Below are positions 1,512 to 32,669 of a stretch of DNA of 37,264 nt, piece after piece. The notes beneath the pieces are model-generated. The model had not been told where the DNA came from. It saw nothing but the letters and a program-made list of their open reading frames with translations, and made no database searches. Source of the stretch: a virus. The stretch is from UHGV virus genome UHGV-0087839; one strand, written 5' to 3'. The position numbers and the translations under genes are program-made. Within the stretch, counting starts at the first letter, position 1; every line of letters starts with the position of its first letter.

Positions 1512-1513
1512 GG

Positions 1514-9188: not shown

Positions 9189-9214
9189 CCGCTAATGGTC
9201 AGATTAGCGGTTTT
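9189..9214 (+). terminator. Hairpin with T-tract between convergent U and invertase genes (possibly bidirectional)
   Basis: CCGCTAAT-GGTCAG-ATTAGCGG followed by TTTT; A-run on the 5' side gives a T-run on the opposite strand. Confidence 0.45.
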
Positions 9215-9803
9215 CATTTTCCTGAGTCTGCCTGGTTGTTTCTTCAGCCTGTATATCGCCTACAGGGTGATAACGATAAATCGTCGATATGCCGATGTCG
9301 TAAATGATCGCCAGTTGTTTCCTGTCATGACCGTTTTTAATCAGCCTCGCTATTTGCTCGTGTTGTTCTTTTGTCAACTTCGGGCGACGTCCGCCAATGC
9401 GTCCTTGTGCGCGTGCTGCTGCCAGCCCGGCCAGTGTACGCTCTACAATTAATTCACGTTCCATTTCGGCTAAAGCCCCCATGACGTGAAAAAAGAAACG
9501 CCCCATGGGTGTTGATGTGTCAATGCTGTCCGTCAGACTACGGAAATTAACACCTTTTTCCCGCAATTCCTCAATAAGCGTGATCAGGTGTTTCATACTT
9601 CTGCCCAGTCTGTCCAGCTTCCAGACAACCAGCGTATCTCCTTCTGATAGCGTTCTGAGCAGTTTTTTCAATCCCGGTCTGGCTGATTTCGTTCCGCTGA
9701 TTTTATCTTCAAAAATCAGTTCACATCCTGCGCAGTTCAGTGCATTGCGTTGTAAATCCGTGTTCTGGTCATTTGTTGACACACGAATATAGCCAATTTG
9801 CAT
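9204..9803 (-). CDS. Serine DNA invertase, Hin/Gin/Cin/Pin family
   Basis: Translation MQIGYIRVSTNDQNTDLQRNAL... matches the resolvase/invertase catalytic N-terminus (serine in RVST); C-terminal HTH; AAAGAGG ribosome-binding site 9 nt upstream of the ATG at 9803. Confidence 0.9.
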   Translation of the reverse strand: MQIGYIRVSTNDQNTDLQRNALNCAGCELIFEDKISGTKSARPGLKKLLRTLSEGDTLVVWKLDRLGRSMKHLITLIEELREKGVNFRSLTDSIDTSTPMGRFFFHVMGALAEMERELIVERTLAGLAAARAQGRIGGRRPKLTKEQHEQIARLIKNGHDRKQLAIIYDIGISTIYRYHPVGDIQAEETTRQTQENENR

Positions 9804-9857
9804 AAAAAACATCCTCTTTGTTTCGTGAAAAATACATAGTTGGTATAGGTAGGGATA

Positions 9858-9883
9858 AAGACGAAAACGTTGGTTTGGGGGAA
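9858..9883. repeat. Invertase crossover site (gix/hix-like), copy A
   Basis: 26-bp sequence whose reverse complement TTCCCCCAAACCAACGTTTTCGTCTT resembles hix/gix sites; sits at the 5' edge of a roughly 200-bp segment repeated three times. Confidence 0.55.
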
Positions 9884-10303
9884 GGCTCTGCGCTGCCCGT
9901 TGGTGTGCCCGTTCCATGGCCCTCAGCCACGCTGCCAACGGGGTGGCTGAAATGTAACGGCGCAGCATTTTCTTCTGAAATGTACCCCAATCTGGCAAAG
10001 GCCTACCCCACCAATAAATTACCGGATTTACGGGGCGAATTTATTCGTGGCTGGGATGATGGACGTGGTGTGGACAATGGGAGAGCATTATTAAGCAGCC
10101 AAGAGGCTACAAATTTTTCTCAGCGTGCCGGAAATATAGGCGATGGTGCGGGCCACGCAATTAATTTTCATGATGGCATAGTCGGAAATCAGCCAGGATT
10201 TTCACGATTTAATTTCACCAGTAACTCTGTAGGCGATGGTATAAATTTTGTTGCTGTCAGGCCGCGAAATATCGCATTTAATTACATCGTAAGGGCAGCA
10301 TGA
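9884..10303 (+). CDS. Promoterless alternative tail-fibre C-terminal cassette A
   Basis: Encodes GLGEGSALPVGVPVPWP...KLPDLRGEFIRGWDDGRG, near-identical to the C-terminal region of H on the opposite strand, then a divergent core and the shared ending RPRNIAFNYIVRAA. Confidence 0.65.
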   Translation, partial: GSALPVGVPVPWPSATLPTGWLKCNGAAFSSEMYPNLAKAYPTNKLPDLRGEFIRGWDDGRGVDNGRALLSSQEATNFSQRAGNIGDGAGHAINFHDGIVGNQPGFSRFNFTSNSVGDGINFVAVRPRNIAFNYIVRAA

Positions 10304-10322
10304 AAACGTTGGTTTGGGGGAA
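10297..10322. repeat. Invertase crossover site (gix/hix-like), copy B
   Basis: Second direct copy of the site; contains the stop codon of cassette A. Confidence 0.55.
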
Positions 10323-10772
10323 GGCTCTGCACTGCCCGTTGGTGTACCTGTTCCATGGCCCTCAACCACGCCGCCAACGGGGTGGCTGAAATGTAACGGC
10401 GCAGCATTTTCTTCTGAAATGTATCCCAGACTGGCAATGGCTTACCCCACCAATAAATTACCGGATTTACGCGGTGAATTTATCCGTGGCTGGGATGATG
10501 GGCGCGGGGTGGATGCCGGAAGGGGCATCTTAAGCATGCAGGGGTGGTTAACAGGAAGTCATTATCATAATATTCGGTCATGGGACGCGTGGGATAACAC
10601 GGTACTGGTGCCAAATGACAAAGGAGGGGATAGTCTGTTGTCGACAGATAACGCCGTCCGGCAAGGTGCAATTAACGGTAGATTTACCAGTCAATACAGA
10701 ACGGAATCCTCAGGGGGGAATGAAACCCGCCCACGCAATATTGCCTTCAATTATATTGTGAGAACCGCATAA
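10323..10772 (+). CDS. Promoterless alternative tail-fibre C-terminal cassette B
   Basis: Same conserved 5' segment and RPRNIAFNYIVRTA ending as cassette A and H, with a different central core. Confidence 0.65.
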   Translation, partial: GSALPVGVPVPWPSTTPPTGWLKCNGAAFSSEMYPRLAMAYPTNKLPDLRGEFIRGWDDGRGVDAGRGILSMQGWLTGSHYHNIRSWDAWDNTVLVPNDKGGDSLLSTDNAVRQGAINGRFTSQYRTESSGGNETRPRNIAFNYIVRTA

Positions 10773-11383
10773 TGAATAACGCGATATTAAATGATGACCT
10801 TATTGCCGTACAGGCAGGAAACATCGTCGTTTATAACTATGATAGTGAGACACGGGAATATATTTCCGAATCAACTGAATATCTTGCTGTGGGTGTCGGT
10901 ATTCCGGCAAATTCCTGTTTAGATGCCCCGGGCGCACATAAAGCGGGCTATGCTATCCGCCGTTCGGAGAATTTAAGTTCATGGGAGTATGCGCCAGACC
11001 ATCGTGGTGAAACCGTCTATAGCACTGACACGGGAAACACCGAAGAAATCACGGCGCTGGGTGACTACCCGAAAAATACAACCACTATCGCCCCGTTAAC
11101 ACCATACGATAAATGGGATGGTGAAAAATGGGTGACAGATACTGAGGCACAACATCGTGCCGCAGTAGAAGCGGCAGAAACCAAGCGCCAGTCACTGGCT
11201 GATGCGGCAATGGCTTCCATAAGTCTGATTCAGTTGAAGTTGCGGGCCGGGCGGAAGTTGACGCAGGCAGAAACCACCCGGCTTAATGCCGTGCTGGATT
11301 ATATAGACGCGCTGAACGCAATGGATATAAACATGGCACCAGATATCAACTTGCCGGAAATACCACTGGCAGCAGCCAGTTGA
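10772..11383 (+). CDS. Tail fibre assembly protein (Tfa/gpG-like)
   Basis: 203-aa ORF whose start overlaps the cassette B stop (TAATG); position and size fit a fibre chaperone within an invertible segment. Confidence 0.7.
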   Translation: MNNAILNDDLIAVQAGNIVVYNYDSETREYISESTEYLAVGVGIPANSCLDAPGAHKAGYAIRRSENLSSWEYAPDHRGETVYSTDTGNTEEITALGDYPKNTTTIAPLTPYDKWDGEKWVTDTEAQHRAAVEAAETKRQSLADAAMASISLIQLKLRAGRKLTQAETTRLNAVLDYIDALNAMDINMAPDINLPEIPLAAAS

Positions 11384-11389
11384 ATATAA

Positions 11390-13003
11390 CTAAGCCGCCC
11401 TCACGATATAGTTAAATGCAATATTGCGGGGGCGGGTTTCACTACCACCTGTGTTACCAATACTTCCTCGTGAATGAAGCGTTGGTGATGGAATCAAACT
11501 CCCTCCTGTATTTGCGGCATCAAGCCCCCTGCCTTGTGTATATGTTTTTTTGAAAATCGTAGCCAACTCCCATTCATCTTTTGTGTCATATCCATCGTTA
11601 GCTACAACAATATGGCGGTGTTTTTCCAACATCCCGTTTTGAATGCTCAATAAAGCGCGTGCCGCATCAATTCCTCGCCCATCATCCCAGCCACGGATAA
11701 ATTCACCGCGTAAATCCGGTAATTTATTGGTGGGGTAGGCTTTTGCCAGTTTGGGGTACATTTCAGAAGAAAATGCTGCACCGTTACATTTCAGCCAGCC
11801 CGTTGGTGGTGTTGCTAAGGGCCACGGAACGGGCACACCAACGGGCAGTGCAGAACCTTCTCCTAAACCAAGGTAATCAAGAACTCCCTGAGTGCTGGTT
11901 TTACCAAGAATGGCACGTCCAACACTTGTCAACGCGGTTAACGCGGCACGATCTGCCCCTGTAAAATATGGGAGTTTATCTGCTGATGTAGCAAGCTCCG
12001 CCAGCGCCGTCAGGGTGGCATCCTTCGGTTGCTTACCCGCAAGCGCGTTAGTCATGGTGGTCGCAAAATTCGGGTCATTGCCCAGCGCCGCAGCCAGTTC
12101 GTTCAGCGTGTTCAGTGCATCAGGTGACGAATCTACAAGTGCGGCAATCGCGGCCATAACGAAAGCCGTGCTTGCGATCTGGGTACTATTAGTCCCCTGT
12201 GGCGCTGTTGGTGTTGTTGGCGTTCCGGTCAGTGCCGGGCTGTTTAATGGTGCTTTCTTGTTCGTTTCATCCATTACCGCCTTAACAGCTTTTGGTGTCG
12301 CTGCCAGCGTTTCAGACGTGCTGTTCGTGGCGCTACTGAGCTGAACAATTCCTTTTTGTGTAGTGGTGGCGTTCTGGGCGGTATATTTCCCGTTAGCCAA
12401 GTCATATGCAGCCTTAACCGCTTTCGGTGTTGCGGCCAGTGTTTCTGATTCACTGTTAATTGCACTGCTTAACTGAGTAAAACCTTTTACGGTCAGCGAG
12501 GCGTCCGGGTGACGTCGTGACTGTTCGTGCTCTGAGATTTTATCATCCACATATTTGCGGGTTGCCAGAACCACAGACGGGTCGATTTTCAGCGTGATGG
12601 CTTCGGTGTTCGTGACAACCAGAATCATGCGGATAGTCTGGGTGCGTCCACTGCCTTCCTGCAACTGCGGTTTGTACGTTTCCGGGCAGTTTGCCACCGC
12701 AATGAGTACACCTTCATCATCATAAAGACCAATCTCACGGATCCAGAATCCTCCCTCGTTTTCAGGGATGATTTGCTCCGCAATAATCTGGCTCTGATTG
12801 TTAGGGTCAACACTCAGAAGATTCAGCGGTGCAATGCGTTTCTGGTTAATCAGTTTTGTTTGTGCAGGGTCTGGTGTTGGTAACACACCATTTGCATCAC
12901 CAACGGCCATTTGCGTCAGATTCAGCTTACTGCCGAGCATCGTCGCGTTAGCCAGTCGTGCCGCGCCCTGATTAGTCAGAATGGCGTAGTATTTCACTGT
13001 CAT
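11390..13003 (-). CDS. H: Tail fibre protein gpH (currently expressed variant)
   Basis: 537 aa; N-terminus resembles P2 H (MAVGD...LP.PD..QT.LI, GGFW.RE.GLYDD.G.LIAVAN, EHEQSRRHPDASL); internal SETLAATPKAVKA tandem repeat; C-terminal part shares the conserved segment with cassettes A and B. Confidence 0.9.
   Translation of the reverse strand: MTVKYYAILTNQGAARLANATMLGSKLNLTQMAVGDANGVLPTPDPAQTKLINQKRIAPLNLLSVDPNNQSQIIAEQIIPENEGGFWIREIGLYDDEGVLIAVANCPETYKPQLQEGSGRTQTIRMILVVTNTEAITLKIDPSVVLATRKYVDDKISEHEQSRRHPDASLTVKGFTQLSSAINSESETLAATPKAVKAAYDLANGKYTAQNATTTQKGIVQLSSATNSTSETLAATPKAVKAVMDETNKKAPLNSPALTGTPTTPTAPQGTNSTQIASTAFVMAAIAALVDSSPDALNTLNELAAALGNDPNFATTMTNALAGKQPKDATLTALAELATSADKLPYFTGADRAALTALTSVGRAILGKTSTQGVLDYLGLGEGSALPVGVPVPWPLATPPTGWLKCNGAAFSSEMYPKLAKAYPTNKLPDLRGEFIRGWDDGRGIDAARALLSIQNGMLEKHRHIVVANDGYDTKDEWELATIFKKTYTQGRGLDAANTGGSLIPSPTLHSRGSIGNTGGSETRPRNIAFNYIVRAA
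11858..11883. repeat. Invertase crossover site within H (TTCTCCTAAACCAAGGTAATCAAGAA), inverted relative to copies A and B
   Basis: Resembles hix/gix consensus (TTCT...AAACCAAGG...); at the constant/variable junction of H. Confidence 0.6.
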
Positions 13004-21486: not shown

Positions 21487-23238
21487 ATGATTCAGGACGC
21501 TTTTGTGCGCCAGCGTGCGCGGCAACTTTACTGGCAGGGTTATCCGCCCGCAGAAATATCACGTCTGATGGGAATAAACCCGAACACGATTTATGCGTGG
21601 AAAAAACGTGACCAGTGGGATGAAACGCCACCCGTGCAGCGTGTCACGCAGTCCATCGATGCGCGCCTCATCCAGCTTACTGAAAAACAGAATAAAACAG
21701 GCGGTGACTTTAAGGAAATAGACCTGCTGACCCGGCAGCTTAAAAAGCTGCATGATGGCCAGCCGGATGCGACGGCCGCAGGAAAGAAAGGCCGGGCGAA
21801 AAAACTCAAAAATCATTTCACGCCGGAACAGATTGCCGCACTGCGGGAAAAAATCATCAGCAGGCTGGAGTGGCATCAGCGGGGCTGGTTTGACTCCCTG
21901 ACCCTTTGCAGGGAAGCCGGGATACGTAACAGGATGATCCTGAAATCCCGACAGATTGGGGCGACCTGGTATTTTGCACAGGAAGCACTGCTGATGGCGC
22001 TGCGTGACGATGTGGCGCAACCTTACCAGCGTAACCAGATTTTTTTGTCTGCGTCGCGTCGTCAGGCGTTCCAGTTTAAAAGCATTATTCAGAAGGCCGC
22101 GGCTGAAGTTGATGTGGAGCTGAAAGGGGGCGATAAAATCATCCTCTCCAACGGCGCAGAGCTGCATTTTCTCGGCACTTCTGCTGCGTCGGCACAGTCC
22201 TATACGGGCAATTTTTATTTTGATGAATTTTTCTGGGTCAGTCGCTTTGCTGAACTGCGCAAGGTGGCTGGCGCTATGGCAACCCTCAGCGGACTGCGGC
22301 GCACCTACTTCTCCACGCCATCCACCGAAACGCACGAGGCATACGCCTACTGGAACGGCGACCGCTGGAATGAGAAAAAGGCCTCGCATAAACGCCAGCG
22401 TTTTTCTGTGGACTGGAAAACGCTGCATAACGGGCTTATCTGCCCTGACCGGACGTGGCGGCAAATTGTCACGCTGGAAGATGTGGTTAATCACGGCTGG
22501 AAACACACTGATATCGACGAAATTCGTGATGAAAACACCGAAGACGAGTTCCTCAATCTCTATATGTGTGAGTTTGTCCGCGAAGGGGAATCGGCATTTA
22601 ACCTGAATATCCTGATTGGCTGCGGTGTTGACGGATACGACGACTGGAAAGACTGGAAACCTTTTGCTCCCCGCCCGATGGGGAATCGTCCGGTATGGAT
22701 TGGGTATGACGCAAACGGCAGTAGTGGCAACGGCGACAGCGGCGCTGTGTCCGTGGTGGTTCCTCCGGCTGTTCCTGGTGGCCGTTTTCGAACGGTGGAG
22801 ACGCGACGCGTTCAGGGGCTGGAGTTTGAAGAACAGGCCAGAGTCATTGAAGAGTTCACGTATCGCTACAACGTGGAACACATCGGCATTGATGTGACGG
22901 GCGGGAACGGGGAGGCTGTTTATCAGATAGTGAAACGGTTTTTCCCTGCTGCTATTCCGTACACCTTCACGCTGTCATCAAAACGGTCGCTGGTACTGAA
23001 AATGCTGCAAATAATGCGTGCCGGGCGGTGGGAATACGATCGCGCCGAACGCGAGCTGGTCGCGGCCTTTAACGCCGTGCGTAAGGTGAAAACACCGGGC
23101 GGCTTTATCACTTACGAAACGGACCGCGCGAGGGGGATCAGCCACGGCGACCTTGCGTGGGCAACCATGCTTGCTGTCATTAACGAACCGATTGGCGGCG
23201 AAGGAGAAAACGAGCGTTTCACGGTTATGGAGTTCTGA
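21487..23238 (+). CDS. P: Terminase large (ATPase) subunit gpP
   Basis: 583 aa, position and size as P2 gpP. Confidence 0.85.
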   Translation: MIQDAFVRQRARQLYWQGYPPAEISRLMGINPNTIYAWKKRDQWDETPPVQRVTQSIDARLIQLTEKQNKTGGDFKEIDLLTRQLKKLHDGQPDATAAGKKGRAKKLKNHFTPEQIAALREKIISRLEWHQRGWFDSLTLCREAGIRNRMILKSRQIGATWYFAQEALLMALRDDVAQPYQRNQIFLSASRRQAFQFKSIIQKAAAEVDVELKGGDKIILSNGAELHFLGTSAASAQSYTGNFYFDEFFWVSRFAELRKVAGAMATLSGLRRTYFSTPSTETHEAYAYWNGDRWNEKKASHKRQRFSVDWKTLHNGLICPDRTWRQIVTLEDVVNHGWKHTDIDEIRDENTEDEFLNLYMCEFVREGESAFNLNILIGCGVDGYDDWKDWKPFAPRPMGNRPVWIGYDANGSSGNGDSGAVSVVVPPAVPGGRFRTVETRRVQGLEFEEQARVIEEFTYRYNVEHIGIDVTGGNGEAVYQIVKRFFPAAIPYTFTLSSKRSLVLKMLQIMRAGRWEYDRAERELVAAFNAVRKVKTPGGFITYETDRARGISHGDLAWATMLAVINEPIGGEGENERFTVMEF

Positions 23239-24284
23239 TGAGCAGAAAAAACAAAAAAGTGCGCATGAGTTCACGCATTGATCTCGCTGATGCGCTCAGG
23301 AAAGAATCATCGCTCAGTGCATTCACATTTGATGGTCCTTATCGCCTGACTGGGCATGACCTGCTGGACAATATGTACTGTGCTGATAACGGGCGGTGGT
23401 ATGAAACCCCGGTGGACTGGTACGGTCTGGCAAGAGCAGCCCGGCAAACGTCCTGGCATCAGTCTGCGCTTTACTTTAAGCGCAATGTATTACTCGGTTG
23501 CTACATCCCGCACCCGCTGCTTTCCCGGCAGGATTTCTCGGCGCTGGCGCTGGACTGGTTTGTGTTCGGTAATGCATTCCTTGAGCTTCGAAGCAATATG
23601 CTCGGCGAACCGCTTAAATTACGGCACGCCCTGGCGAAATACATGCGACGCGGAAGCGATCTTGAATCATGGTGGTATGTGCAGGATGGTAAGGACGCGT
23701 TTCAGTTTCGCCCTGGCAAAGTATGCCACCTGATGAATCCGGATATTAACCAGGAAATCTACGGCATGCCGGAATATCTTGGCGCATTACTCTCGGCCAG
23801 CCTTTCTCATTCGGCGGACATGTTCAGAAAACTGTACTACGACAACGGATCCCACGCCGGGTGCATCATCTACATCGGTGCAGCGCAGGTAAACCGCGAA
23901 AGCATGGACTCCCTGAAAGAAACGTTACAGGGTGCGCGTGGTGGTGGTGCATTTAAAAACGTGCTCATTCATGCGCCCAACGGGGGCAAAGAGGGGGTGC
24001 AAATTTTGCCGTTCCAGCAGATCACCGCAAAGGATGAGTTCATGAATGTTAAGGCGGCATCCCGTGATGATGTACTGGCTGCGCACCGCGTTCCGCCGCA
24101 ACTGATGGGGGCGATGCCGGGCGAAAAAAGTGCGTTTGGTGATGTGGAGAAGGCCGCGCGGGTTTATGCAATTAACGAGCTGATGCCCGTTATGGAGGCT
24201 ATGAAGCACATCAATGACTGGCTTGGCGAAGAGGTGATCCGCTTTAACCCTTACGCACTGTTAGACACCCAGCCCACATCCTGA
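23238..24284 (+). CDS. Q: Portal protein gpQ
   Basis: 348 aa; start overlaps the P stop. Confidence 0.85.
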   Translation: MSRKNKKVRMSSRIDLADALRKESSLSAFTFDGPYRLTGHDLLDNMYCADNGRWYETPVDWYGLARAARQTSWHQSALYFKRNVLLGCYIPHPLLSRQDFSALALDWFVFGNAFLELRSNMLGEPLKLRHALAKYMRRGSDLESWWYVQDGKDAFQFRPGKVCHLMNPDINQEIYGMPEYLGALLSASLSHSADMFRKLYYDNGSHAGCIIYIGAAQVNRESMDSLKETLQGARGGGAFKNVLIHAPNGGKEGVQILPFQQITAKDEFMNVKAASRDDVLAAHRVPPQLMGAMPGEKSAFGDVEKAARVYAINELMPVMEAMKHINDWLGEEVIRFNPYALLDTQPTS

Positions 24285-24310
24285 CGCGCTTCGCTTGTCT
24301 GCTGCTTCGT

Positions 24311-24335
24311 CGGGGCATAAAAAATTTATGCCCCG
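24311..24335. other. Perfect palindrome GGGGCATAAAAAATTTATGCCCC just downstream of Q (hairpin; cos-proximal)
   Basis: Read directly; 10-bp arms. cos is expected in 24285..24780 by synteny but the cohesive-end sequence was not recognised. Confidence 0.4.
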
Positions 24336-24613
24336 ACTCTCCAGCTCCTGTATCAATCAGATAATTTCACGACGTCTTCCAGCTTATCGCCATCATCGAC
24401 GGTCAGGCTCTTACGCAATCCCACCGCGTTGACTGCATGTTCTCGCCGCCTCAGTGCGATTTTGACGGCCTTATCTGTCACCCCATCAAATCAAAAGCCC
24501 TCACGTCTTTTTCACGCTCAGCGTGAGAAATACAGCCATTCTGTTGTGTCGCTGCGACATCGTTCAGGGGATGCTATTTACCCCCTGAAACGCGGGCTGT
24601 TCCCCCGTCACCT

Positions 24614-24638
24614 GCGCGCAGAAAAAGCGCGTTTTTTT
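24614..24638 (+). terminator. Rho-independent terminator (GC stem + T7)
   Basis: CGCGC-AGAAAAA-GCGCG followed by TTTTTTT on the plus strand. Confidence 0.5.
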
Positions 24639-24764
24639 GTGCACGCACGGATCCCTGACGGATCCAGCCGCCACGCGGGCCAGAAGGGCAAAAATTCGTT
24701 CAAAAAATTGTGCAAATTTGTGCACTATCGTGCATGTAAATTCATAAAAAAATTACAGAAAAAA

Positions 24765-24780
24765 GGCCGCTTTCGCGGCC
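24765..24780 (-). terminator. Rho-independent terminator downstream of the S8 protease gene
   Basis: GGCCGC-GAAA-GCGGCC followed by TTTTTT on the minus strand, 8 nt after the protease stop. Confidence 0.55.
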
Positions 24781-24787
24781 ATAAAAA

Positions 24788-26992
24788 TTACGTGTCGAGA
24801 GAAATTTGTGTGCGCAGTTGAATAGGATTCAGAATTGTATATCGCTGGCGAATAACATTATATAAATCAAAGTCTTTTACCCTTACGCTTATTACCATCG
24901 CATATCGCATATCAGGGGCTGAAACTCCCTTAACATGGCGCGAAGAATCTCGGGCATGATACCGTATATCAAAAACTGGATCGCTTAATAATGTATCAGC
25001 ACTGAACTTTTTGCTTCTGTGCAAACAAGTTTCCCACTTATGACCTTCACTCCTACACTCCCTTTCAGTCTTATACTGGCTTTTTTGACCAAAGAAATCA
25101 TCTGTATCGGTATCGTCAAGGCCGAATCTTGGGCGGAAAGTTACCTGCATACCGGCCCTTGTATAGTTTACTGAATGTTCAGGATCTACTGGGGTTTGAA
25201 TGCATAAAGTAGCGGTAAGCTCAAATGCTTCGTCAAAGGGAACATCAGGGAATGGGATCGGTGCCCTTAAATATTTATTTTTTGCTAATGAACCATAGTA
25301 AATTACTGTAGCAGTATCATTTGGACAATCGATTAAAACGTTAGGATCCTCACTAAACCGTCCCCAACCGATATGTTCACGCGAATATTTTCTTGATGTT
25401 TCAGCATGATGAACAAGCAACGCTTTCAATGCAATGGTGTTCAATGGAGTTCCTGATAGAGCCGCAACTCCAGCGGCCGTTCTCAATGCTAATGGAGAGG
25501 CATAACTGGTTCCTTGAACTCCAACTATAGAACCAAGCAGAGGGTTGTAAGTGTAAAAAGGCTCGTCGTCGCTTCCACCAAAAATAACACCATCAGGTTT
25601 AACGAATCCGGGGCTTCTGCCTGGCCCAATACAGCTATATGGTGCCCGCCCCCATTTTTCATCGCTACGATCAGCAGCACCAATCGCTAGCGCGTTTACC
25701 ATATCAGAAGGAGGTTGTATTCTCGCTGCATCACCGTCCTCATTGCCATCATTCCCAACAGCAACAGTAAGTAATATCCCATGTTTAGCACAGATTTGGT
25801 CTAAAACAGCAGTCCATACATGAACCTCATCATCACCAATTGGAAGATGAGGACCAATACTTAGATTAGCGAACTTATAGTCACCACTATCAAGAACGGA
25901 CTGTATTTTCTTAAGGACATCAAATAAATCCCAATTGCCATTGTCACCTGATGTCGGTGAAAGAACTCTATAATGATCTACATTCATAAACGGTCTTTTA
26001 AAAGAAGGTGCATTTTCCTCGACACGTCCGAATAAGAAAGTGGATGTCACTTCATTACCGTGCTGCAATAATAATCCGCTTGTTTCTTTGGTGTCTGGAT
26101 ACACGTATTCCGTAACCCAATTACTCAAGTCAGCTGTCCCCAAGCCACCATCAAAAATGGCAATACGTTCGGATTCAAGAACAGCTTTAGAATTAGGGAG
26201 CTCCGGTGTAACTATATTAGATAACTTTCTGACAATGTTCGGCTGAGTACACCTGAGAGACGGCATCGGCCGCACAACGCGGATTAATGAAAAATCGAGT
26301 GTTTTTTTCATATCTTCAGGTCGCGCGTGTGCAACGATGAAAGTCAGCCCACCAACTTGGATTCTACTTTTGTAATCAACAGAGACATCATATTGTGCCG
26401 CATAGCTAATATAGGCTTTAACGATATCATCGTCTTCAACCCCAGCATGAAGAACCACTTCAAATTTTATCAAATCACTTTTCGCATGCTCAAAATTGCG
26501 TGCTCTCTCTTTTCCTTCAAAAAAGCTAACACTTTCAATTTCGATCAAATCCTTTTGTACGCCCTTCGGAGCTGTAGGGGAATTTAAAATTTCCTTAAAT
26601 CTTATAACGGCATCATCATCACCGCTAACAAACAGTTGCGCCGTTACTAAGTCCTTATTCTGATCGCACTGACGTGCCGCTTTCCGTGGGCGAATGATTA
26701 CCTGACGGCTACCGACATCCCGTAAACCTGTCGCTCTAAGCAATCCTTCCGGAAAGTAGCTTTTACCCAAAAACGCTGGGTGTAAAGTTAAATTGAATAC
26801 ACTCTCCCCCCTTGGCTTAGCCGCATCATCCAAACTGCGAAAGCGTGAGAGTAAAGTATCAATCTCTGGGTTTAAATGCTCCCTTACTTCTTCAAGAGTA
26901 TAGGGATAGCGCTTACCATCCCTTCCTTTAGGCAAAGGTTCCTTTTTTGTCAGAACATGACCGTTACCTAAAAGTAAGTTCCTTTCCATCAT
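24788..26992 (-). CDS. Subtilisin-like serine protease (peptidase S8) with N- and C-terminal extensions
   Basis: 734 aa; ordered Asp (IAIFDGG), His (VHVW) and Ser (GTSYASP) catalytic motifs plus oxyanion GN; AT-rich; start overlaps the upstream ATPase stop (ATGA). Confidence 0.8.
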   Translation of the reverse strand: MMERNLLLGNGHVLTKKEPLPKGRDGKRYPYTLEEVREHLNPEIDTLLSRFRSLDDAAKPRGESVFNLTLHPAFLGKSYFPEGLLRATGLRDVGSRQVIIRPRKAARQCDQNKDLVTAQLFVSGDDDAVIRFKEILNSPTAPKGVQKDLIEIESVSFFEGKERARNFEHAKSDLIKFEVVLHAGVEDDDIVKAYISYAAQYDVSVDYKSRIQVGGLTFIVAHARPEDMKKTLDFSLIRVVRPMPSLRCTQPNIVRKLSNIVTPELPNSKAVLESERIAIFDGGLGTADLSNWVTEYVYPDTKETSGLLLQHGNEVTSTFLFGRVEENAPSFKRPFMNVDHYRVLSPTSGDNGNWDLFDVLKKIQSVLDSGDYKFANLSIGPHLPIGDDEVHVWTAVLDQICAKHGILLTVAVGNDGNEDGDAARIQPPSDMVNALAIGAADRSDEKWGRAPYSCIGPGRSPGFVKPDGVIFGGSDDEPFYTYNPLLGSIVGVQGTSYASPLALRTAAGVAALSGTPLNTIALKALLVHHAETSRKYSREHIGWGRFSEDPNVLIDCPNDTATVIYYGSLAKNKYLRAPIPFPDVPFDEAFELTATLCIQTPVDPEHSVNYTRAGMQVTFRPRFGLDDTDTDDFFGQKSQYKTERECRSEGHKWETCLHRSKKFSADTLLSDPVFDIRYHARDSSRHVKGVSAPDMRYAMVISVRVKDFDLYNVIRQRYTILNPIQLRTQISLDT

Positions 26993-28071
26993 TTAATCCC
27001 CCACTTTTGTAATTTATTCGCGATTGTTGGATGTGAAACACCAACTAATTCAGCTATCTTCCTATTTGAAAAACCGTCAAAATGATATTTAATTATATTG
27101 AGATCATTATCGCTAAACTCATCCAATGAAACCCTCTCCGTAATTACGGCTTCTATTAATGAGCTTTCAAATGGAATATTTCTAAGTACCTCATTCTTTT
27201 TGGAGAAATTCAAAATACGGTTAATGATGGCAAAGGACATGCCATCTAATAATGGTGCAAGTTTTTTAGATAGTTCAGGTTCAATATTATGATTGACTAA
27301 ATATCTATCTATCAGTTCTACTGATGGCATATTAAATTTAAGGATGTGCTCAAATCGACGCCAAACAGCCGGATCTAAGATATCAGGGTGATTAGTCGCA
27401 GCAACAAGAAGCGAGGTCGCTGGCCACTCATCTATGGTCTGTAGGAGTACAGTAACTAAACGTTTTAATTCTCCAACGTCCCTGTCATCATCACGTCTTT
27501 TTGCAACAGCATCAAATTCATCAAGCAAAAGGACACATGGTTTCTCTTTGGCATAATCCATAACGGATTTAATATTATTACCTGTTTTTCCCAAAAGAGA
27601 ACTCATTACAGATGAGAGATCCAATGTTAAAAGAGGTAAATTTAACTTTGCAGCAAGCCAATGTGCGGACATTGTTTTGCCTACGCCTGGCGGGCCAGAA
27701 AGTAAAACCGTCTTCACAGGTTCAAGACCAGCTTTGAACAAAGAAACCGCATTCTCTCTTTCGTTAACAATTGACTCCAGCTTCTTTGAGATATCCGTAT
27801 TCCATACAGGTTCTTCAACAATTGCGTTGACAGATGTTTCCTGCAAAAGGTTTCGTCTGGAGTCTCCATCCACAGGCATAGGAGCCTTACTAGATGCCCC
27901 ACGTAATACTGTTCCCTCAGCAACTAACGAAGCCAGCTTAGAAGCTAAAGCCTCATCATTTTTACGGATGTTGTTAATCATCTTTCTGCATAGGAGTGTA
28001 AATGCATTTGCGTTGCCTTTGATGCCTTGCTCGATGAGTTTGAAAAGTTCATCCTCCCTCACGTTTACCAT
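26989..28071 (-). CDS. AAA+ ATPase with C-terminal helix-turn-helix
   Basis: 360 aa; Walker A GPPGVGKT, Walker B VLLLDEFD, second region of homology ATNHPDILDPAVWRRFE; C-terminal NRKIAELVGVSHPTIANKL HTH-like segment. Confidence 0.85.
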   Translation of the reverse strand: MVNVREDELFKLIEQGIKGNANAFTLLCRKMINNIRKNDEALASKLASLVAEGTVLRGASSKAPMPVDGDSRRNLLQETSVNAIVEEPVWNTDISKKLESIVNERENAVSLFKAGLEPVKTVLLSGPPGVGKTMSAHWLAAKLNLPLLTLDLSSVMSSLLGKTGNNIKSVMDYAKEKPCVLLLDEFDAVAKRRDDDRDVGELKRLVTVLLQTIDEWPATSLLVAATNHPDILDPAVWRRFEHILKFNMPSVELIDRYLVNHNIEPELSKKLAPLLDGMSFAIINRILNFSKKNEVLRNIPFESSLIEAVITERVSLDEFSDNDLNIIKYHFDGFSNRKIAELVGVSHPTIANKLQKWGIK

Positions 28072-28449
28072 AAAACCCCCAATAAAACATCAGCTTGTGT
28101 AAGCTGGTAACTACATTAATGAAAATCATTGACTAATGTTACCACTCTTGCTGGCGTAATTCAAAGAGTATCCTCACTTTTTTACTGTATGGATAATCAG
28201 CATAAAATCTATCCAGTTGGGTTACTCGAACATACTGTCAATACTTGTTTCCAACGATTGATCAGTTCTACAGTTTTATCTCCTTCACTTGTGTTGGCAG
28301 CATGCTTATTCCTGAACCAGCTCGATTACTTGGCCATTTGAGAAAGATGTGTAGGTCTTCTGATGGTTTGTATTGGAACGGGGTGCATAGTGATTTGCAC
28401 CCCGTTCTTTATGTTATGGGGTTGGCGGCAGGGCGAATACGCCCTGATG

Positions 28450-28761
28450 TTATTCAGGAAATAACGCCCGGATATTTCCGGCCATCTGACTGGTTATCTG
28501 TGCGGTTGATACTGGCTGTGACGCGGGGCGTTCTGTCTTGGTTTGTGTCACTGATAACACCTCATCATCAGCCCATGCAGCCAGTCGGTAAGCCTCTGCC
28601 GGATTCATTTTCAGAAGTGCCAGCCCGGCCAGAAAAGCCACGCGTTGGCCGCTTTTGCGGGCTTCTGGTGTAAGGCTGTCCAGCCAGGCGCATGCTTCTC
28701 CTTCGTTCTTGACGGCGGTGGGCTTCAGATAGAAACTTATCCGTCTGGTTGGAGTCGTCAT
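28450..28761 (-). CDS. parR: ParR-like partition adaptor (ribbon-helix-helix)
   Basis: Translation from the internal ATG (MTTPTRRISFYLKP...AWLDSLTPEARK...AFLAGLAL) resembles plasmid R1 ParR; AAGGAG ribosome-binding site; follows parM by 4 nt. Confidence 0.7.
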   Translation of the reverse strand: MTTPTRRISFYLKPTAVKNEGEACAWLDSLTPEARKSGQRVAFLAGLALLKMNPAEAYRLAAWADDEVLSVTQTKTERPASQPVSTAQITSQMAGNIRALFPE

Positions 28762-28765
28762 TGGT

Positions 28766-29725
28766 TTACTCCTTGTCCATTGCGTACAGCCCATTAACCA
28801 GAGCAAACTGTGGCACCCCGTCCGCGATGAAAGTCGCATTAACTCCGCAGGCTTCGCGGATAGCGGGTGCCACAATCTCCGCCCCTCCACCGACAACCAT
28901 CACCCGCCCGTAACCCGAAAAAACCGCCAGCGCGCGGATCACGCGTTGTTTCAGTGTTTCTTCCTTTTCACGAATAACCGCCATCAGGCTGGCGTAATGC
29001 GCGTCATTGTGGATGTGCTGGCGCAGCCAGGCTTCATCATGGCGATGTTCGATAATGGTATTGGCGATGTGATGACTGGTGCGCATACCGTTAGTGGCCA
29101 TCACCGACAGTACGGCATCGGCCATCAGAGAAACGCCTACGTGTGGATCGCAAAACACCTGGCTGATACCTGCCAGTTGCCCCTGAACCTTTGCCACATC
29201 CAGCGTGGTTCCGCCCAAATCCACAATCAGCAGGGATTCAAACGGACTCATGTCAGCCAGTGCCTTAAAGCCAGCCGGAATGGATTCAGGCATAACCCGC
29301 ACGTTACGGATAGTGAATGCCTCACCGTTCTGGTACTCCACCGGGCGCATAACGTTCGCTTTTTTGCGGTTGATGTTGGCCATGTCCGGCTGGGCGTTAG
29401 TGTCGAAATATTCGCTCAGTGGCAGGGTGACAACCACATCCACTTCCTGTGGCGTGATGCCTGATTTGACCAGCGCGTGATGAATGGCAATGACATTCAC
29501 ATCGCTGTACTGGTATTGCGTGTCGGTCGTCTGGACAAAGCGATCGCTGACCGGATCAAAACCATAGCGCACGCCATCAAGCATGTAGTTCGCAGGCTGC
29601 GAGCCACCGAACGGCGCAGACCATTCCGACTTGAAGCTGTTCGGGCTGATGGCGTTGCGGCGTTCGCCGTTTTCAGTCCATGCCAGCTTGATGTTGGTGG
29701 AGCCGTCGTCGATACAAATTTTCAT
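28766..29725 (-). CDS. parM: ParM/StbA actin-like segregation ATPase
   Basis: 319 aa; strong collinear resemblance to R1 ParM (IDDGSTNIKL, ISPNSF, QYSDVNV.A.HHAL, ERKKAN, TI..VKVMPESIPAG, SLLI.DLGGTTLD, GVSL, SGY..VMV.GGGAE). Confidence 0.85.
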   Translation of the reverse strand: MKICIDDGSTNIKLAWTENGERRNAISPNSFKSEWSAPFGGSQPANYMLDGVRYGFDPVSDRFVQTTDTQYQYSDVNVIAIHHALVKSGITPQEVDVVVTLPLSEYFDTNAQPDMANINRKKANVMRPVEYQNGEAFTIRNVRVMPESIPAGFKALADMSPFESLLIVDLGGTTLDVAKVQGQLAGISQVFCDPHVGVSLMADAVLSVMATNGMRTSHHIANTIIEHRHDEAWLRQHIHNDAHYASLMAVIREKEETLKQRVIRALAVFSGYGRVMVVGGGAEIVAPAIREACGVNATFIADGVPQFALVNGLYAMDKE

Positions 29726-29760: not shown

Positions 29761-29851
29761 CGGGATTTTTAAATCCCGCTTTCGCCTGTTTTGTGCGCGC
29801 TTCATATATCGCGGCGCGTTTTTTGCTCATTTGCGGGATTTGTGAATCCCG
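29761..29851. promoter_or_regulatory. Candidate parC-like centromere/promoter: two 18-bp palindromes CGGGATTT..AAATCCCG about 73 bp apart upstream of parM
   Basis: CGGGATTTTTAAATCCCG (29761..29778) and CGGGATTTGTGAATCCCG (29834..29851) read directly; the second lies inside the 3' end of gene A. Confidence 0.4.
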
Positions 29852-32669
29852 TTTCTGTCTGTTTTTTGTTGCCACTGGTCAGGCTACCCCGCAGCAGGTC
29901 TGCTTTGCGGCGGGCGCGTTCAGTGGTTTCACTGATTCTCTGTGCGTGCTCTGCGTCACGAATGGCGCGCAGCATGTCAGAAAGCACGGTAACGGGTGTT
30001 TTCATGGTGTTCTGGTCCTGCTGAAGTGTGGATGCCAGGCGTGCGGCGGCTTCGGGGTCTGATGCCCCGAGCTGTGCCAGATAGCTGGCGACCGGGTTAT
30101 GGCGGATCTCCGTGCTGCTTACGCCGTGATTACGGCTCAGGCGCTGCCAGAGCTGCGTGATTCGGCTGTCCGGGCGGGTATCCGGTTTGCGTACAATTTC
30201 AAATCCCTGCGGTGCAATGATGCTGCCGTCAACGTACAGGCTGCCGCCCCGTAACAGGTGCTGCATCTGCTGTTCACCGATATGCAGGCCGAGAGATTCG
30301 GCAGACTCCCGCCATTCTTTAGCGAGTAATTCGTGGTTATCAGGCAAAGGCTGTGGCTGTTTGCGGCTCTGTGTCCAGTTCTGCATTTCATCACTGCTGT
30401 TTTTGGCCTGTTTGTCACGCAGCGAACGCATCAGTGCCCGGCGTTCGTGCCGTTTCAGTGAGCGCATCCATTCATTCACTTCAATGCCGTCAGGGAGCTG
30501 CGGCCACGGTGCTGGCCGTTCTTCCGGCTGTTCTGTCCCGTTGTTGTCCGTTTCCTGTACACGGGGACAGTTATTGCCACGAGTCCAAGGGGCGGCAGGG
30601 CCGCCCTGAAGGTCAAAACCATTTTCGCGGGCGCTGTCTTCCGCTTCCGGTTTACGTCTTACCAGCTTCCAGTTATCCGGATGCGTGCACACACGGGAGG
30701 ATTCCCCGATGAGTGGTGACCAGATCCCGTAAATCTGTACGCTCTGTTCGCCGTAATCGTTCAGCTCATCTGCGAGGTCGTAGGCAGTGCGAATCAGGTA
30801 GTCTTTGCGTGGAACAAGTACGCCGCCCTGTTTTTCAATGTAGGTGGCAAAACACCCGGCATCGGCGGCAGCGAGTACCGCATCCATTGCGTCATCCTTC
30901 AGCCGTTGCGGGCCTTCCGGGTTGCGTGCCATCTGGCTGGCAAGGCGGCGCAGTTCACGCCACACCTGACGGGAGGGGATGCCAAAGAACTGGAACTGGC
31001 GGACCCGATGAAGGCGCGCCCAGCCGATGGCGCGCTCCACGCTCTCGGCCATTGATTTTCCGGTTTCGTGGTCAACGCGTGGTTTGCCCGTTTTCGGATC
31101 GATTCCATCCACGGCGCGGCTGTCCAGGTTTTTTCCGATGTAGGTGGCGATGTAGCTGGTTGGCGTGCCTTTGGAGCCGTCGACGTACTCCACCTTAAAG
31201 CGCGGAGTAATATCATTGCCCAGCTCGTGGCGGTCTTCCTGAATGGCAATATCGCGGGTGATGGCCACGATGCTGTCGATTTCTTCCGGATGAGCAAAGA
31301 CCATCATATGCCAGTGCACGGTGCCGTCATGGTGAGGCTCCACCGTGCGGATGCCATACCAGCGCAGGCCGTCGCGGTTCAGTTTTTTGCGGACCGCCGC
31401 AAAAAACGTGTTAACCAGGTAATCGCTGGAGTCGCGCATGGTGGCCCCGTTCCATTTGGGATTCGGATGACCGTTCTCTGTTGTGGCGTGGTATTTTGAC
31501 GGGCAGGTGACAGTCAGAAACACCGCTTTGTCGCCACGGGCTTCGGCCAGAAGTTCCAGTCCCTTCATGGTGGCCATCATTTCTGCCTTACGGTGAACCG
31601 GGTTACTTACTCCCGCGTAATACACTGTCTCGAGATCAATCGTGAAGCCGTCTTCGTTTTCCAGTTCGAAGCTCTTCAGGAAGTCGCGGGTTTTCTCGCG
31701 CTGTGCGCGAAACTCGCTTAACGCGTCCTGGCTCAGATAGGGTGATGTTTTTCTGGAAACCAGACAGGCGGCGCGGAGTTGTTCTTCTCTCCACTCACAA
31801 CGTAACAGCCACAGTTTGCGTTTCCACCAGTCCGCACAGGTCAGGCGAAGGATTGCGCCCGGCAGCAGCTCCGTGTCCGGTTCGTTCCTCCGGTCTTTGT
31901 CTGTTGTCAGTGCGTCATAATGTGGAGGCATGGCGTGCAGGTGTAACGCCATGCGGGCCAGCATCTGATACGCCTTCAGCGTTACATCCATGGTCAGTTC
32001 GCCATCAGTCGCGCCAAAGCCATAGCAGAGTTTTTCGAAGGTGCTGCTGAACATCGCCGCCGTCATGGTGGCCAGCGTCTGTATCTGGTGTTTGTTGAGC
32101 TGCGGCAGGTAAAGCAAATCGTCCAGGCGTTCGCGTCCGGCAAGGGAGCGATAACCCGGTGTCAGCCAGCGGTGATCGGTGCGGTCCAGACGTTCGAATA
32201 TTTTGCGCAGGGTTCCGCGCGCGTAGCGTTCAGCCTGCCAGCTCTTTTTGCCTTTCCGGCGATCGGCTTCCTGTTTTTTGCGCAGGAAAGAGAGGTGGCG
32301 GCTCAGAGGTTCACGCAGATAAACGGGAAGCACCTTCAGTGTGGCAAAAGCACGGGCCATCGGGTCTTGTTCTGTTGCCTGACGCTTGCTGATGATGCTT
32401 TGTGCCAGCTTTTCACGCTGTCCGGCTTCCTCAAGGGATGCCATGAGTTTTTTACCCACGGTGGATTGTGCGAAAAAGGCTTCCTCCTTCGCTTCCTGTT
32501 CTTCCAGAGCCTTTTTGTCTGCCTCAAGGTAGTAACGGATGGCGCGTTGCAGGTCGGTTTCAGTTTCCTGCCTGTGCTCCGTAAATCTGGCCGGATCAAT
32601 GGCTGGCCGTGGTTCATTCCAGCTCCATGCAAACTCATTCATGGCTGGTATCCTGTCACGCGCTGCCAC
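29802..32669 (-). CDS. A: Replication initiation protein gpA (rolling-circle HUH endonuclease), 955 aa
   Basis: Large ORF at the P2 A position with HWHMMVFA HUH-type motif; longer than P2 gpA as I recall it. Confidence 0.8.
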   Translation of the reverse strand: MAARDRIPAMNEFAWSWNEPRPAIDPARFTEHRQETETDLQRAIRYYLEADKKALEEQEAKEEAFFAQSTVGKKLMASLEEAGQREKLAQSIISKRQATEQDPMARAFATLKVLPVYLREPLSRHLSFLRKKQEADRRKGKKSWQAERYARGTLRKIFERLDRTDHRWLTPGYRSLAGRERLDDLLYLPQLNKHQIQTLATMTAAMFSSTFEKLCYGFGATDGELTMDVTLKAYQMLARMALHLHAMPPHYDALTTDKDRRNEPDTELLPGAILRLTCADWWKRKLWLLRCEWREEQLRAACLVSRKTSPYLSQDALSEFRAQREKTRDFLKSFELENEDGFTIDLETVYYAGVSNPVHRKAEMMATMKGLELLAEARGDKAVFLTVTCPSKYHATTENGHPNPKWNGATMRDSSDYLVNTFFAAVRKKLNRDGLRWYGIRTVEPHHDGTVHWHMMVFAHPEEIDSIVAITRDIAIQEDRHELGNDITPRFKVEYVDGSKGTPTSYIATYIGKNLDSRAVDGIDPKTGKPRVDHETGKSMAESVERAIGWARLHRVRQFQFFGIPSRQVWRELRRLASQMARNPEGPQRLKDDAMDAVLAAADAGCFATYIEKQGGVLVPRKDYLIRTAYDLADELNDYGEQSVQIYGIWSPLIGESSRVCTHPDNWKLVRRKPEAEDSARENGFDLQGGPAAPWTRGNNCPRVQETDNNGTEQPEERPAPWPQLPDGIEVNEWMRSLKRHERRALMRSLRDKQAKNSSDEMQNWTQSRKQPQPLPDNHELLAKEWRESAESLGLHIGEQQMQHLLRGGSLYVDGSIIAPQGFEIVRKPDTRPDSRITQLWQRLSRNHGVSSTEIRHNPVASYLAQLGASDPEAAARLASTLQQDQNTMKTPVTVLSDMLRAIRDAEHAQRISETTERARRKADLLRGSLTSGNKKQTETGFTNPANEQKTRRDI

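What the first reader, a model, noticed from the sequence alone, without database searches (positions are those of the whole stretch)
24765..28071. AAA+ ATPase + S8 subtilase operon at the P2 old/tin hotspot (Iet-like architecture)
Between cos/Q and the replication module, where P2 carries old and tin, there is an AT-rich two-gene operon. It encodes a classical AAA ATPase (Walker A GPPGVGKT, Walker B LLLDEFD, SRH motif) with a C-terminal HTH, ATGA-coupled to a 734-aa subtilisin-like protease with the Asp/His/Ser triad in S8 order and large flanking domains, ended by a terminator. To my recollection an ATPase plus S8 protease pairing of this kind has been reported as the Iet anti-phage system, so this is probably a member or distant relative rather than something new. 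The fused HTH and the protease extensions may still mark a variant.
Basis: partly seen in the sequence, partly recalled or inferred. Interest (0 to 1): 0.7.

Follow-up and report, generated by a model that had tools for sequence, protein, structure and literature searches.

The report
Known IetAS defence pair in prophage
This is an intact copy of IetAS, a known two-gene ATPase-plus-protease anti-phage and toxin-antitoxin system, in the usual defence-gene slot of a P2-family prophage of E. coli; the same proteins were catalogued there in 2022, so it is ordinary.

Summary
Two minus-strand genes overlap by ATGA. ietA (26989..28071, 360 aa) is a classical AAA ATPase with a C-terminal HTH. ietS (24788..26992, 734 aa) is an S8 subtilase with catalytic residues D281/H311/N414/S496. 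A terminator follows at 24780..24765. The pair lies in a low-GC (0.39-0.44) cargo block, about 24742..28331, between portal gene Q plus cos and parR/parM/gpA of a P88-like prophage.

Both proteins match PADLOC IetA and IetS profiles over nearly their full length (3.6e-89 and 2.1e-41). Its IetA sequence is 100% identical to the window's. The 399 IetS residues held in the stored table are also identical.

The HTH and the protease's flanking domains are conserved across this subtype, so they do not mark a new variant. The founding pTiC58 IetA does lack the HTH.

The likely mechanism is partly taken from the literature and partly inferred. IetA uses ATP to restrain the toxic protease IetS. A phage trigger releases IetS, and infection aborts.

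Verdict: already known, low interest.

The parts
26989..28071 (-). ietA: 360-aa classical-clade AAA+ ATPase (the antitoxin/regulator partner) with an N-terminal helical region and a C-terminal HTH (about 321-356)
   Evidence: ORF. Pfam AAA 9.6e-31 and HTH_50 26.7 bits. PADLOC IetA PDLC02196 3.6e-89, residues 7-356 against profile 5-370 of 374. Best PDB sequence matches are p97/Cdc48 D2 at about 1e-38. Invariant motifs. AF2 model pLDDT 78. 100% identical to protein 2 of system 7 in Rousset Table S5B.
24788..26992 (-). ietS: 734-aa S8 subtilase (the toxin/effector partner). N-terminal beta-alpha-beta-beta-alpha-beta prodomain-like modules (about 60-245), catalytic domain (about 270-550; D281, H311, N414, S496), C-terminal beta domain (about 560-730)
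24755..24780 (-). Intrinsic-terminator-like hairpin plus T-run that ends the ietAS operon
   Evidence: stem 24780..24765, GGCCGCGAAAGCGGCC followed by TTTTTTCTGT, 7 nt after the ietS stop codon.
28136..28164 (-). Candidate sigma-70 promoter of ietAS: -35 TTGAAT, 17-nt spacer, extended -10 TGgTAACAT
   Evidence: Read from the sequence. The block is conserved upstream of ietA in phiT5282H and in the 85%-identical Plesiomonas pair. It falls below the scanner's 9-of-12 threshold, so it is a candidate only.
28091..28106 (.). Perfect 6+6 inverted repeat (CAGCTT-n4-AAGCTG) between the candidate promoter and the RBS; possibly an operator for the IetA HTH or a 5'-UTR hairpin
   Evidence: In phiT5282H the repeat is kept through a symmetric G>A / C>T change (CAACTTA..TAAGTTG). 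It is only partly kept in Plesiomonas. This is weak evidence.
24742..28331 (.). Variable cargo block of the hotspot; it holds only ietAS and its control region
   Evidence: blastn. P88 matches the window up to 24741 and again from 28400. Shae_phiSM matches up to 24734 and again from 28332. phiT5282H shares 24591..28332 at 95.7%, while its portal gene is only about 70% identical.
24285..24741 (.). Conserved segment next to portal gene Q, presumed to hold cos; left border of the hotspot
   Evidence: Conserved at 92-95% in P88-like phages. The cos assignment (CCGCCACGCG near 24668) rests on my recollection of the P2/186 cos sequences and on the statement that the hotspot is near cos. It was not tested.
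23238..24284 (+). Portal gene (gpQ); left flank of the hotspot
   Evidence: ORF. Annotated as portal protein in P88, Shae_phiSM and phiT5282H at the aligned position.
28450..29725 (-). parR (28450..28761) and parM (28766..29725); right flank. Rousset counts this pair as hotspot system #1.
   Evidence: Plasmid_stab_B 1.7e-23; StbA_N 2e-82 and ParM C-terminal domain 6e-69. Table S5B system 1 has 4592 occurrences.
29802..32669 (-). Replication endonuclease gpA; outer right border of the hotspot
   Evidence: Phage_GPA 7.3e-130.

Best explanation
The locus is an intact IetAS system: an AAA+ ATPase IetA plus a subtilisin-like protease IetS. It is carried as accessory cargo in the cos-proximal gpQ-gpA defence hotspot of a P88-like (Xuanwuvirus, P2-family) prophage of E. 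coli. Identity and location are shown here.

Mechanism, taken from the literature on other family members: IetS is a toxic protease and IetA is its antitoxin; the pair protects against phages by abortive infection once a phage protein triggers it.

Mechanism, inferred here: IetA forms a p97/PAN-like ring that uses ATP to keep IetS harmless. IetS looks like a zymogen, with prodomain-like modules in front of the catalytic domain. IetA may hold or remodel it, or keep the prodomain engaged. When an infecting phage disturbs this restraint, IetS cleaves host or phage proteins. The cell stops growing before the phage completes, which protects sister lysogens. The conserved C-terminal HTH of IetA most likely autoregulates the operon at the palindrome upstream of its RBS, as type II antitoxins do.

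I put identity at about 0.95 and the mechanistic sketch at about 0.5.
For: Profile membership: PADLOC IetA 3.6e-89 and IetS 2.1e-41, both near full length. NCBIfam IteA and IteS are the top hits.

Identity to a catalogued system: Rousset 2022 Table S5B system 7, 'Occurrences in P2 hotspot' 400, note 'ietAS (Gao et al, 2020)'. Its IetA is 100% identical and the 399 stored IetS residues are identical.

Hotspot: the flanks are about 97% identical to P88, Chuche and Shae_phiSM, which carry other cargo at this site. PMC13586616 states that the main P2 defence hotspot lies between GpA and GpQ.

Mobility: the same cassette occurs at 95.7% in Enterobacter phage phiT5282H, a different genus with a 70%-identical portal. 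32 of 5426 complete E. coli genomes carry it, each as a single chromosomal copy. 1112 genomes match only part of the wider 24400-28500 query, which includes the conserved hotspot borders.

Intact catalytic motifs. Classical AAA clade. S8 core plus prodomain-like fold.

Literature: toxin/antitoxin roles (PMC5006074; PMC13069673). Abortive infection triggered by SPbeta YosG (bioRxiv 10.1101/2022.08.27.505566). Protease activity is required and an ietA mutant could not be cloned. ietAS in E. coli is often prophage-borne.
Against: NCBIfam equivalog cutoffs are not reached: IteA 253 bits against a cutoff of 510, and IteS 116 against 900. The pair is therefore a different subtype from NCBI's seed sequences, at 34% and 24% identity to a named iteA/iteS pair.

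IetS shows no significant pairwise similarity to the founding pTiC58 IetS (E 0.099).

I found no phage-challenge or toxicity data for this exact allele. Rousset's tables of tested systems contain no S8 entry. I could not establish which allele Wu et al. cloned from ECOR52.

The mechanism of IetAS was described as unknown as late as April 2026. The ATP-dependent restraint, the zymogen idea and the HTH autoregulation are inference. The IetA pore-loop position lacks the usual aromatic residue (SLLGKTG), which weakens a simple substrate-threading model.
Confidence: 0.9

Rival explanations
1. The pair serves mainly as an addiction (post-segregational killing) module that stabilises the prophage. 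Any anti-phage effect is secondary.
For: The founding members were characterised as stabilisation toxin-antitoxin systems: pTiC58 IetAS, and SGI1 SgiAT at 50% and 36% identity to IetA and IetS (PMC5006074). Here the cassette sits directly beside a plasmid-type ParR/ParM partition module.
Against: ParR/ParM is present in P88-like phages whatever the cargo, and phiT5282H carries ietAS without it. The site is a documented defence hotspot. Other Iet systems give phage protection by abortive infection. SgiAT under its own promoter gave no post-segregational killing. The two roles are not mutually exclusive.
Confidence: 0.2
2. A phage life-cycle function: a protease and chaperone pair for capsid maturation, lysis or replication of the P2-like phage itself.
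For: The pair is encoded in a phage genome next to morphogenesis and replication genes. In Plesiomonas the homologous pair sits inside a lysis cassette.
Against: It is absent from most close relatives, which are otherwise about 97% identical in the flanks. 1112 genomes match part of the wider hotspot query and only 32 carry the cassette. GC is atypically low. It has its own candidate promoter and its own terminator. P2-type phages already have the gpO protease/scaffold.
Confidence: 0.02
3. A housekeeping ATP-dependent protease or chaperone pair (FtsH, PAN or Clp-like) captured by chance. One phage record annotates the ATPase as 'ftsH'.
For: The AAA domain resembles FtsH, PAN and Cdc48. phiT5282H annotates gp20 as ftsH.
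Against: The FtsH equivalog scores 66 bits against a cutoff of 600, and PAN about 84 against 500. There is no M41 peptidase domain. IetA profiles fit far better, at 298 bits. The partner is an S8 protease, and the pairing is conserved on mobile elements.
Confidence: 0.01

Closest known systems
P2-hotspot system #7 'ietAS' of Rousset et al. 2022 (Cell Host Microbe, PMC9122126, Table S5B)
   Same: IetA is 100% identical over 360 aa. The 399 IetS residues held in the stored table are identical. Same hotspot, same host species.
   Different: Nothing detectable. The stored table truncates IetS after 399 residues, so the remainder was not compared.
Enterobacter phage phiT5282H gp20/gp21 (NC_049429, Novemvirus)
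   Same: Same cassette at 95.7% nucleotide identity over 24591..28332. Same position between the portal gene and gpA.
   Different: A different Peduoviridae genus: its portal is about 70% identical and it has no ParR/ParM. Annotated only as 'AAA family ATPase/ftsH' and 'S8 family peptidase'.
NCBI-named anti-phage IteA/IteS (NF042959/NF042956), for example on Acidovorax sp. T1 plasmid p1-T1
   Same: Same two-gene order and overlapping genes. The proteins are colinear over the full length, including the IetA C-terminal HTH-like tail and the IetS N- and C-terminal domains.
   Different: Only 34% (IetA) and 24% (IetS) identity. Our proteins score well below the equivalog cutoffs. It is plasmid-borne, next to Shedu and between IS21 copies.
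Founding IetA/IetS toxin-antitoxin of Agrobacterium pTiC58 (Yamamoto et al. 2009, as cited in PMC5006074) and SgiAT of Salmonella genomic island 1
   Same: An AAA ATPase antitoxin upstream of an S8 protease toxin. IetA is 32% identical (E 1e-45) with the same Walker and arginine motifs. Both pairs hit PADLOC Iet profiles.
   Different: pTiC58 IetA is 328 aa and lacks the HTH tail. pTiC58 IetS is 836 aa, has no significant pairwise similarity to ours, and best fits a different IetS profile, PDLC02198. It was described as a plasmid or island stabilisation system, not as phage cargo.
ietHAS (Liu-DS4; NAR 2026, PMC13069673)
   Same: An IetA plus IetS core. The protease is required for defence and ietA behaves as an antitoxin.
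   Different: ietHAS has a third, essential SNF2-type helicase gene, ietH. No such gene lies in or next to this cassette.

Membership tests
IetAS (Iet) anti-phage / toxin-antitoxin system | AAA+ ATPase that matches IetA profiles over most of its length | tested here: met
   PADLOC PDLC02196 3.6e-89, 298 bits, residues 7-356 against profile 5-370 of 374. Three further IetA models also hit.
IetAS (Iet) anti-phage / toxin-antitoxin system | S8 subtilisin-like protease that matches IetS profiles over most of its length | tested here: met
   PADLOC PDLC02197 2.1e-41, 140 bits, residues 22-707 against profile 24-718 of 749. Five further IetS models also hit. Pfam Peptidase_S8 2.3e-17.
IetAS (Iet) anti-phage / toxin-antitoxin system | The two genes are adjacent and co-oriented, with ietA upstream of ietS | tested here: met
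   4-base ATGA overlap at 26989-26992. The same order occurs in Chromobacterium, Acidovorax, Plesiomonas and pTiC58.
IetAS (Iet) anti-phage / toxin-antitoxin system | Intact ATPase motifs (Walker A, Walker B, sensor-1, arginine fingers) and an intact Asp/His/Ser triad | tested here: met
   K132, D184/E185, N227 and R238/R239 are invariant. D281, H311, N414 and S496 are invariant.
IetAS (Iet) anti-phage / toxin-antitoxin system | NCBIfam equivalog thresholds for IteA (510 bits) and IteS (900 bits) | tested here: not met
   253 and 116.5 bits. The pair is a distinct subtype and not an equivalog of NCBI's seed proteins. This does not remove it from the broader family as PADLOC and Rousset et al. 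define it.
IetAS (Iet) anti-phage / toxin-antitoxin system | Detectable homology to the founding pTiC58 IetA and IetS | tested here: inconclusive
   IetA is 32% identical, E 1e-45. The IetS pairwise comparison gives E 0.099, although both proteases hit IetS profiles.
IetAS (Iet) anti-phage / toxin-antitoxin system | IetS is toxic, IetA neutralises it, and the pair protects against phage | not testable with these tools
   These properties are known only for other members. I found no data for this allele.
Cargo of the P2-like cos-proximal (gpQ-gpA) defence hotspot | Located between the portal gene (with cos) and replication gene A | tested here: met
   Portal at 23238..24284, gpA at 29802..32669. 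The hotspot is defined in PMC13586616 and PMC9122126.
Cargo of the P2-like cos-proximal (gpQ-gpA) defence hotspot | Conserved flanks with interchangeable cargo among close relatives | tested here: met
   P88, Shae_phiSM and Chuche share the flanks at 96-97% but carry other genes at this site. 1112 E. coli genomes match part of the wider query and 32 hold this cassette.
Housekeeping AAA protease (FtsH, PAN/proteasome, Clp) | Score above the curated family cutoff, with the cognate protease domain or partner | tested here: not met
   FtsH 66 bits against 600; PAN 84 against 500; ClpX 19 against 359. No M41 or ClpP-type domain.

The most novel reading that the evidence does not exclude
As far as the held literature shows, this HTH-bearing subtype has never itself been tested, although it is abundant in E. 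coli P2-family prophages. It could work differently from the tested Bacillus and Gao-type systems. One possibility is an AAA+-gated, prodomain-locked subtilase whose ATPase also reads DNA through its HTH. It might also double as a prophage-addiction module beside ParMR. Because the IetAS mechanism is unsolved, this allele could be a tractable model that reveals a new mode of protease-based immunity.
Probability: 0.1. Interest if true: 0.45.

Novelty: already known. Interest (0 to 1): 0.1.

Why it matters
It matters little as a discovery. The family has been named since 2009 as a toxin-antitoxin system and since 2020 as an anti-phage system. Standard tools detect it, and this exact protein pair is listed in the 2022 catalogue of P2-hotspot defence systems.

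Its residual value is practical. It is a clean, intact, naturally phage-borne E. coli allele of a system whose molecular mechanism is still unknown. It has well-defined cassette borders, and there is evidence that the cassette moves between P2-family genera. The predicted prodomain-like modules in IetS and the conserved HTH in IetA give concrete hypotheses for anyone working on the IetAS mechanism.

Tried and rejected
1. "HTH or protease extensions mark a new variant": rejected. Both are conserved across the subtype and are colinear with the NCBI-named IteA/IteS.

2. Solved structures of IetA or IetS: none found by sequence. Only generic subtilisins at E of about 1e-3 and p97-type AAA domains.

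3. Reading the primary papers. Gao et al. 2020 and Yamamoto et al. 2009 are not held, so their content is cited only as other papers report it.

4. The sigma-70 scanner found no promoter upstream of ietA at its threshold. A weaker candidate with an extended -10 was read by eye. It rests only on conservation in three sequences.

5. The operator idea for the palindrome at 28091..28106. One symmetric double change in phiT5282H supports it, but the Plesiomonas sequence keeps it only partly and Chromobacterium has a different palindrome, CCAGCTGG. It remains speculation.

6. A search of the main text of the 2026 P2/P4 hotspot paper for Iet found nothing, and its supplements are not held.

7. I could not determine whether the ietAS that Wu et al. 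cloned from ECOR52 is this allele.

Full report
**Observation.** The window holds two minus-strand ORFs exactly as described. One is a 360-aa protein at 26989..28071 and the other a 734-aa protein at 24788..26992. The stop of the first overlaps the start of the second in ATGA. The first protein has Walker A GPPGVGKT (126-133) and Walker B LLLDEFD (181-187). It matches Pfam AAA at 9.6e-31 and gives a borderline C-terminal HTH hit (HTH_50, 26.7 bits against a cutoff of 27). The second protein matches Peptidase_S8 at 2.3e-17 over residues 288-544. A GC-rich hairpin with a T-run lies at 24780..24765 on the minus strand, just after its stop codon. GC falls to 0.39-0.44 across the pair and is 0.53-0.59 on both sides.

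**What surrounds it.** The window is almost a whole P2-family prophage. Terminase (21487..23238) and portal (23238..24284) lie to the left. To the right are ParR (28450..28761), ParM (28766..29725) and replication protein gpA (29802..32669, Phage_GPA 7e-130). The flanks are 96-97% identical to Escherichia phages P88 and Chuche and to Citrobacter phage Shae_phiSM, all Xuanwuvirus in the Peduoviridae. Those phages carry unrelated small genes where this window has the pair. A blastn comparison puts the cargo borders at about 24742 and 28331-28399. In 5426 complete E. coli genomes, 1112 match part of the wider 24400-28500 query, which includes the conserved hotspot borders. Only 32 carry the cassette. 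Each copy is single and chromosomal, and 31 of them are at 99.5% identity or more. [quoted passage not shown] Rousset et al. 2022 place the hotspot at the cos site (PMC9122126).

**What it is.** Against PADLOC-DB the ATPase hits IetA at 3.6e-89 (PDLC02196, residues 7-356 on profile positions 5-370 of 374). The protease hits IetS at 2.1e-41 (PDLC02197, residues 22-707 on positions 24-718 of 749). Several further Iet models also match, and nothing else competes. NCBIfam gives IteA_antiphage and IteS_antiphage as the top hits, but far below their equivalog cutoffs: 253 bits against 510, and 116 against 900. Table S5B of Rousset et al. [quoted passage not shown] Its IetA sequence is identical to the window's over all 360 residues. 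The 399 IetS residues held in the stored table are identical too. The locus is therefore not only a family member but an already catalogued allele.

**Is it a variant?** IetS homologues from Gamma- and Betaproteobacteria at 41-86% identity are uniformly about 730 aa and align over 100% of the query. D281, H311, N414 and S496 are invariant, and so are many positions in the N- and C-terminal regions. IetA homologues at 48-57% identity are about 360 aa, and nearly all carry an annotated HTH. The HTH residues G333, S335, R337, I339, A340, H347, P348 and T349 are invariant in a 30-sequence alignment. A pair that NCBI names iteA/iteS, on Acidovorax plasmid p1-T1, is colinear with ours from end to end at 34% and 24% identity. 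That includes an HTH-like tail.

The founding pair on pTiC58 is more distant. I located it as the only ATPase plus S8 pair in the region I fetched. Its IetA is 328 aa, is 32% identical to ours, and stops before the HTH. Its 836-aa IetS has no significant pairwise similarity to ours and best fits another IetS profile. The family is therefore heterogeneous, and this is one of its populated, already modelled subtypes. The HTH and the protease extensions are canonical for that subtype.

**Mobility.**
- Enterobacter phage phiT5282H (Novemvirus) carries the same cassette at 95.7% nucleotide identity, between its portal gene and gpA. Its portal is only about 70% identical to the window's, and it has no ParMR.
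- An 85%-identical pair sits inside a lambdoid lysis cassette on a Plesiomonas megaplasmid.
- A 55%-identical pair lies next to Tn7-like genes in Chromobacterium.
- The Acidovorax pair lies beside Shedu, between IS21 copies.

This is the behaviour of a mobile defence or addiction module.

The IetA model has pLDDT 78. It shows a helical N-terminal region, the AAA core with its lid, and three short C-terminal helices at 321-356. By sequence IetA belongs to the classical AAA clade: p97/Cdc48 D2 at about 1e-38, plus PAN and FtsH. Its pore-loop-1 position reads SLLGKTG, with no aromatic residue, and this is invariant.

**How it most likely works.**
- *From the literature.* IetS-type proteases are toxins and IetA-type ATPases are their antitoxins. 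This was shown for pTiC58 IetAS and for SGI1 SgiAT (PMC5006074). IetAS defends against phage (Gao et al. 2020, as cited). A Bacillus cereus ietAS acts by abortive infection and becomes toxic when SPbeta YosG is expressed (bioRxiv 10.1101/2022.08.27.505566). In the ietHAS variant the protease active site is needed and an ietA mutant could not be cloned. [quoted passage not shown] In E. coli, ietAS is often prophage-borne and gave limited protection on its own in one study.
- *Inferred here.* An IetA ring spends ATP to keep a zymogen-like IetS inactive. A phage product breaks that restraint. IetS then cleaves cellular or phage proteins and the infected lysogen dies or arrests. The IetA HTH probably represses the operon.

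I found a candidate promoter: -35 TTGAAT at 28164..28159, a 17-nt spacer, and an extended -10 TGgTAACAT whose TAACAT hexamer lies at 28141..28136. A perfect palindrome lies at 28091..28106 between this promoter and the RBS. The promoter block is conserved in phiT5282H and Plesiomonas. The palindrome is preserved in phiT5282H through a symmetric double substitution. This evidence is thin.

**Rivals.** A primary role as a prophage-addiction module is plausible and not exclusive. ParMR is present whatever the cargo, though, and the site is a defence hotspot. A phage life-cycle protease is very unlikely, given the cassette's absence from near-identical relatives, its low GC and its own terminator. 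A captured housekeeping AAA protease is very unlikely for the same reasons, and because scores against FtsH, PAN and Clp are far below cutoff.

**Verdict.** The novelty class is "already known", because the identical proteins are listed as ietAS in the P2-hotspot catalogue. Interest is low, about 0.1. The only open matter is the unsolved mechanism of the family as a whole, for which this allele would be a convenient E. coli model.

Noticed in passing
window 9204..11383, next to tail-fibre gene 11390..13003: A serine recombinase/invertase (9204..9998, minus; Resolvase 3e-51 plus HTH_7) lies next to two short plus-strand ORFs with tail Collar domains (9818..10303, 10314..10772) and a tail-fibre assembly gene (10772..11383). 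All face the main tail-fibre gene on the minus strand. It looks like a Gin/Cin/Pin-type invertible host-range segment.
   Followed up: no
window 954..2101: A low-GC (about 0.41) pair of minus-strand ORFs of 185 and 195 aa lies beyond the gpD-like gene (2335..3576). The 195-aa product has a weak PADLOC hit to the C-terminus of PsyrT (1e-7). It may be a second cargo or moron locus near the prophage end.
   Followed up: partly
window 28450..29725: A plasmid-type ParR/ParM (Plasmid_stab_B + StbA) partition module sits between the ietAS cassette and gpA. Rousset's table counts it as the commonest 'system' of the P2 hotspot, with 4592 occurrences. It is an actin-type segregation module in an integrating P2-family phage.
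   Followed up: partly
window 28091..28106; L001 8498..8513: A perfect inverted repeat, CAGCTT-n4-AAGCTG, lies just upstream of the ietA RBS. phiT5282H retains it through a symmetric G>A / C>T double change. It could be an operator or a 5'-UTR hairpin. It is only partly conserved in Plesiomonas.
   Followed up: partly
IetA residues 156-164 (window about 27580..27606, minus strand): The pore-loop-1 position of this classical-clade AAA ATPase reads VMSSLLGKTG. It has no aromatic residue and is invariant across 30 homologues. This is unusual for a substrate-threading unfoldase.
   Followed up: no
L007 3366..6784 (Plesiomonas plasmid); L004 4921..8205 (Chromobacterium); L006 3986..7373 (Acidovorax plasmid): Homologous IetAS pairs ride on quite different mobile contexts: inside a lambdoid lysis cassette between the endolysin and a DUF2514 gene, next to Tn7-like TniQ/TniB/transposase genes, and beside a Shedu nuclease between two IS21 copies.
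   Followed up: no
window 28332: The right-hand break in similarity falls at the same base (28331/28332) in the comparison with Shae_phiSM (same genus, different cargo) and with phiT5282H (different genus, same cargo). This suggests a discrete recombination joint for cassette exchange. A TGGCCA palindrome lies at 28331..28336.
   Followed up: no
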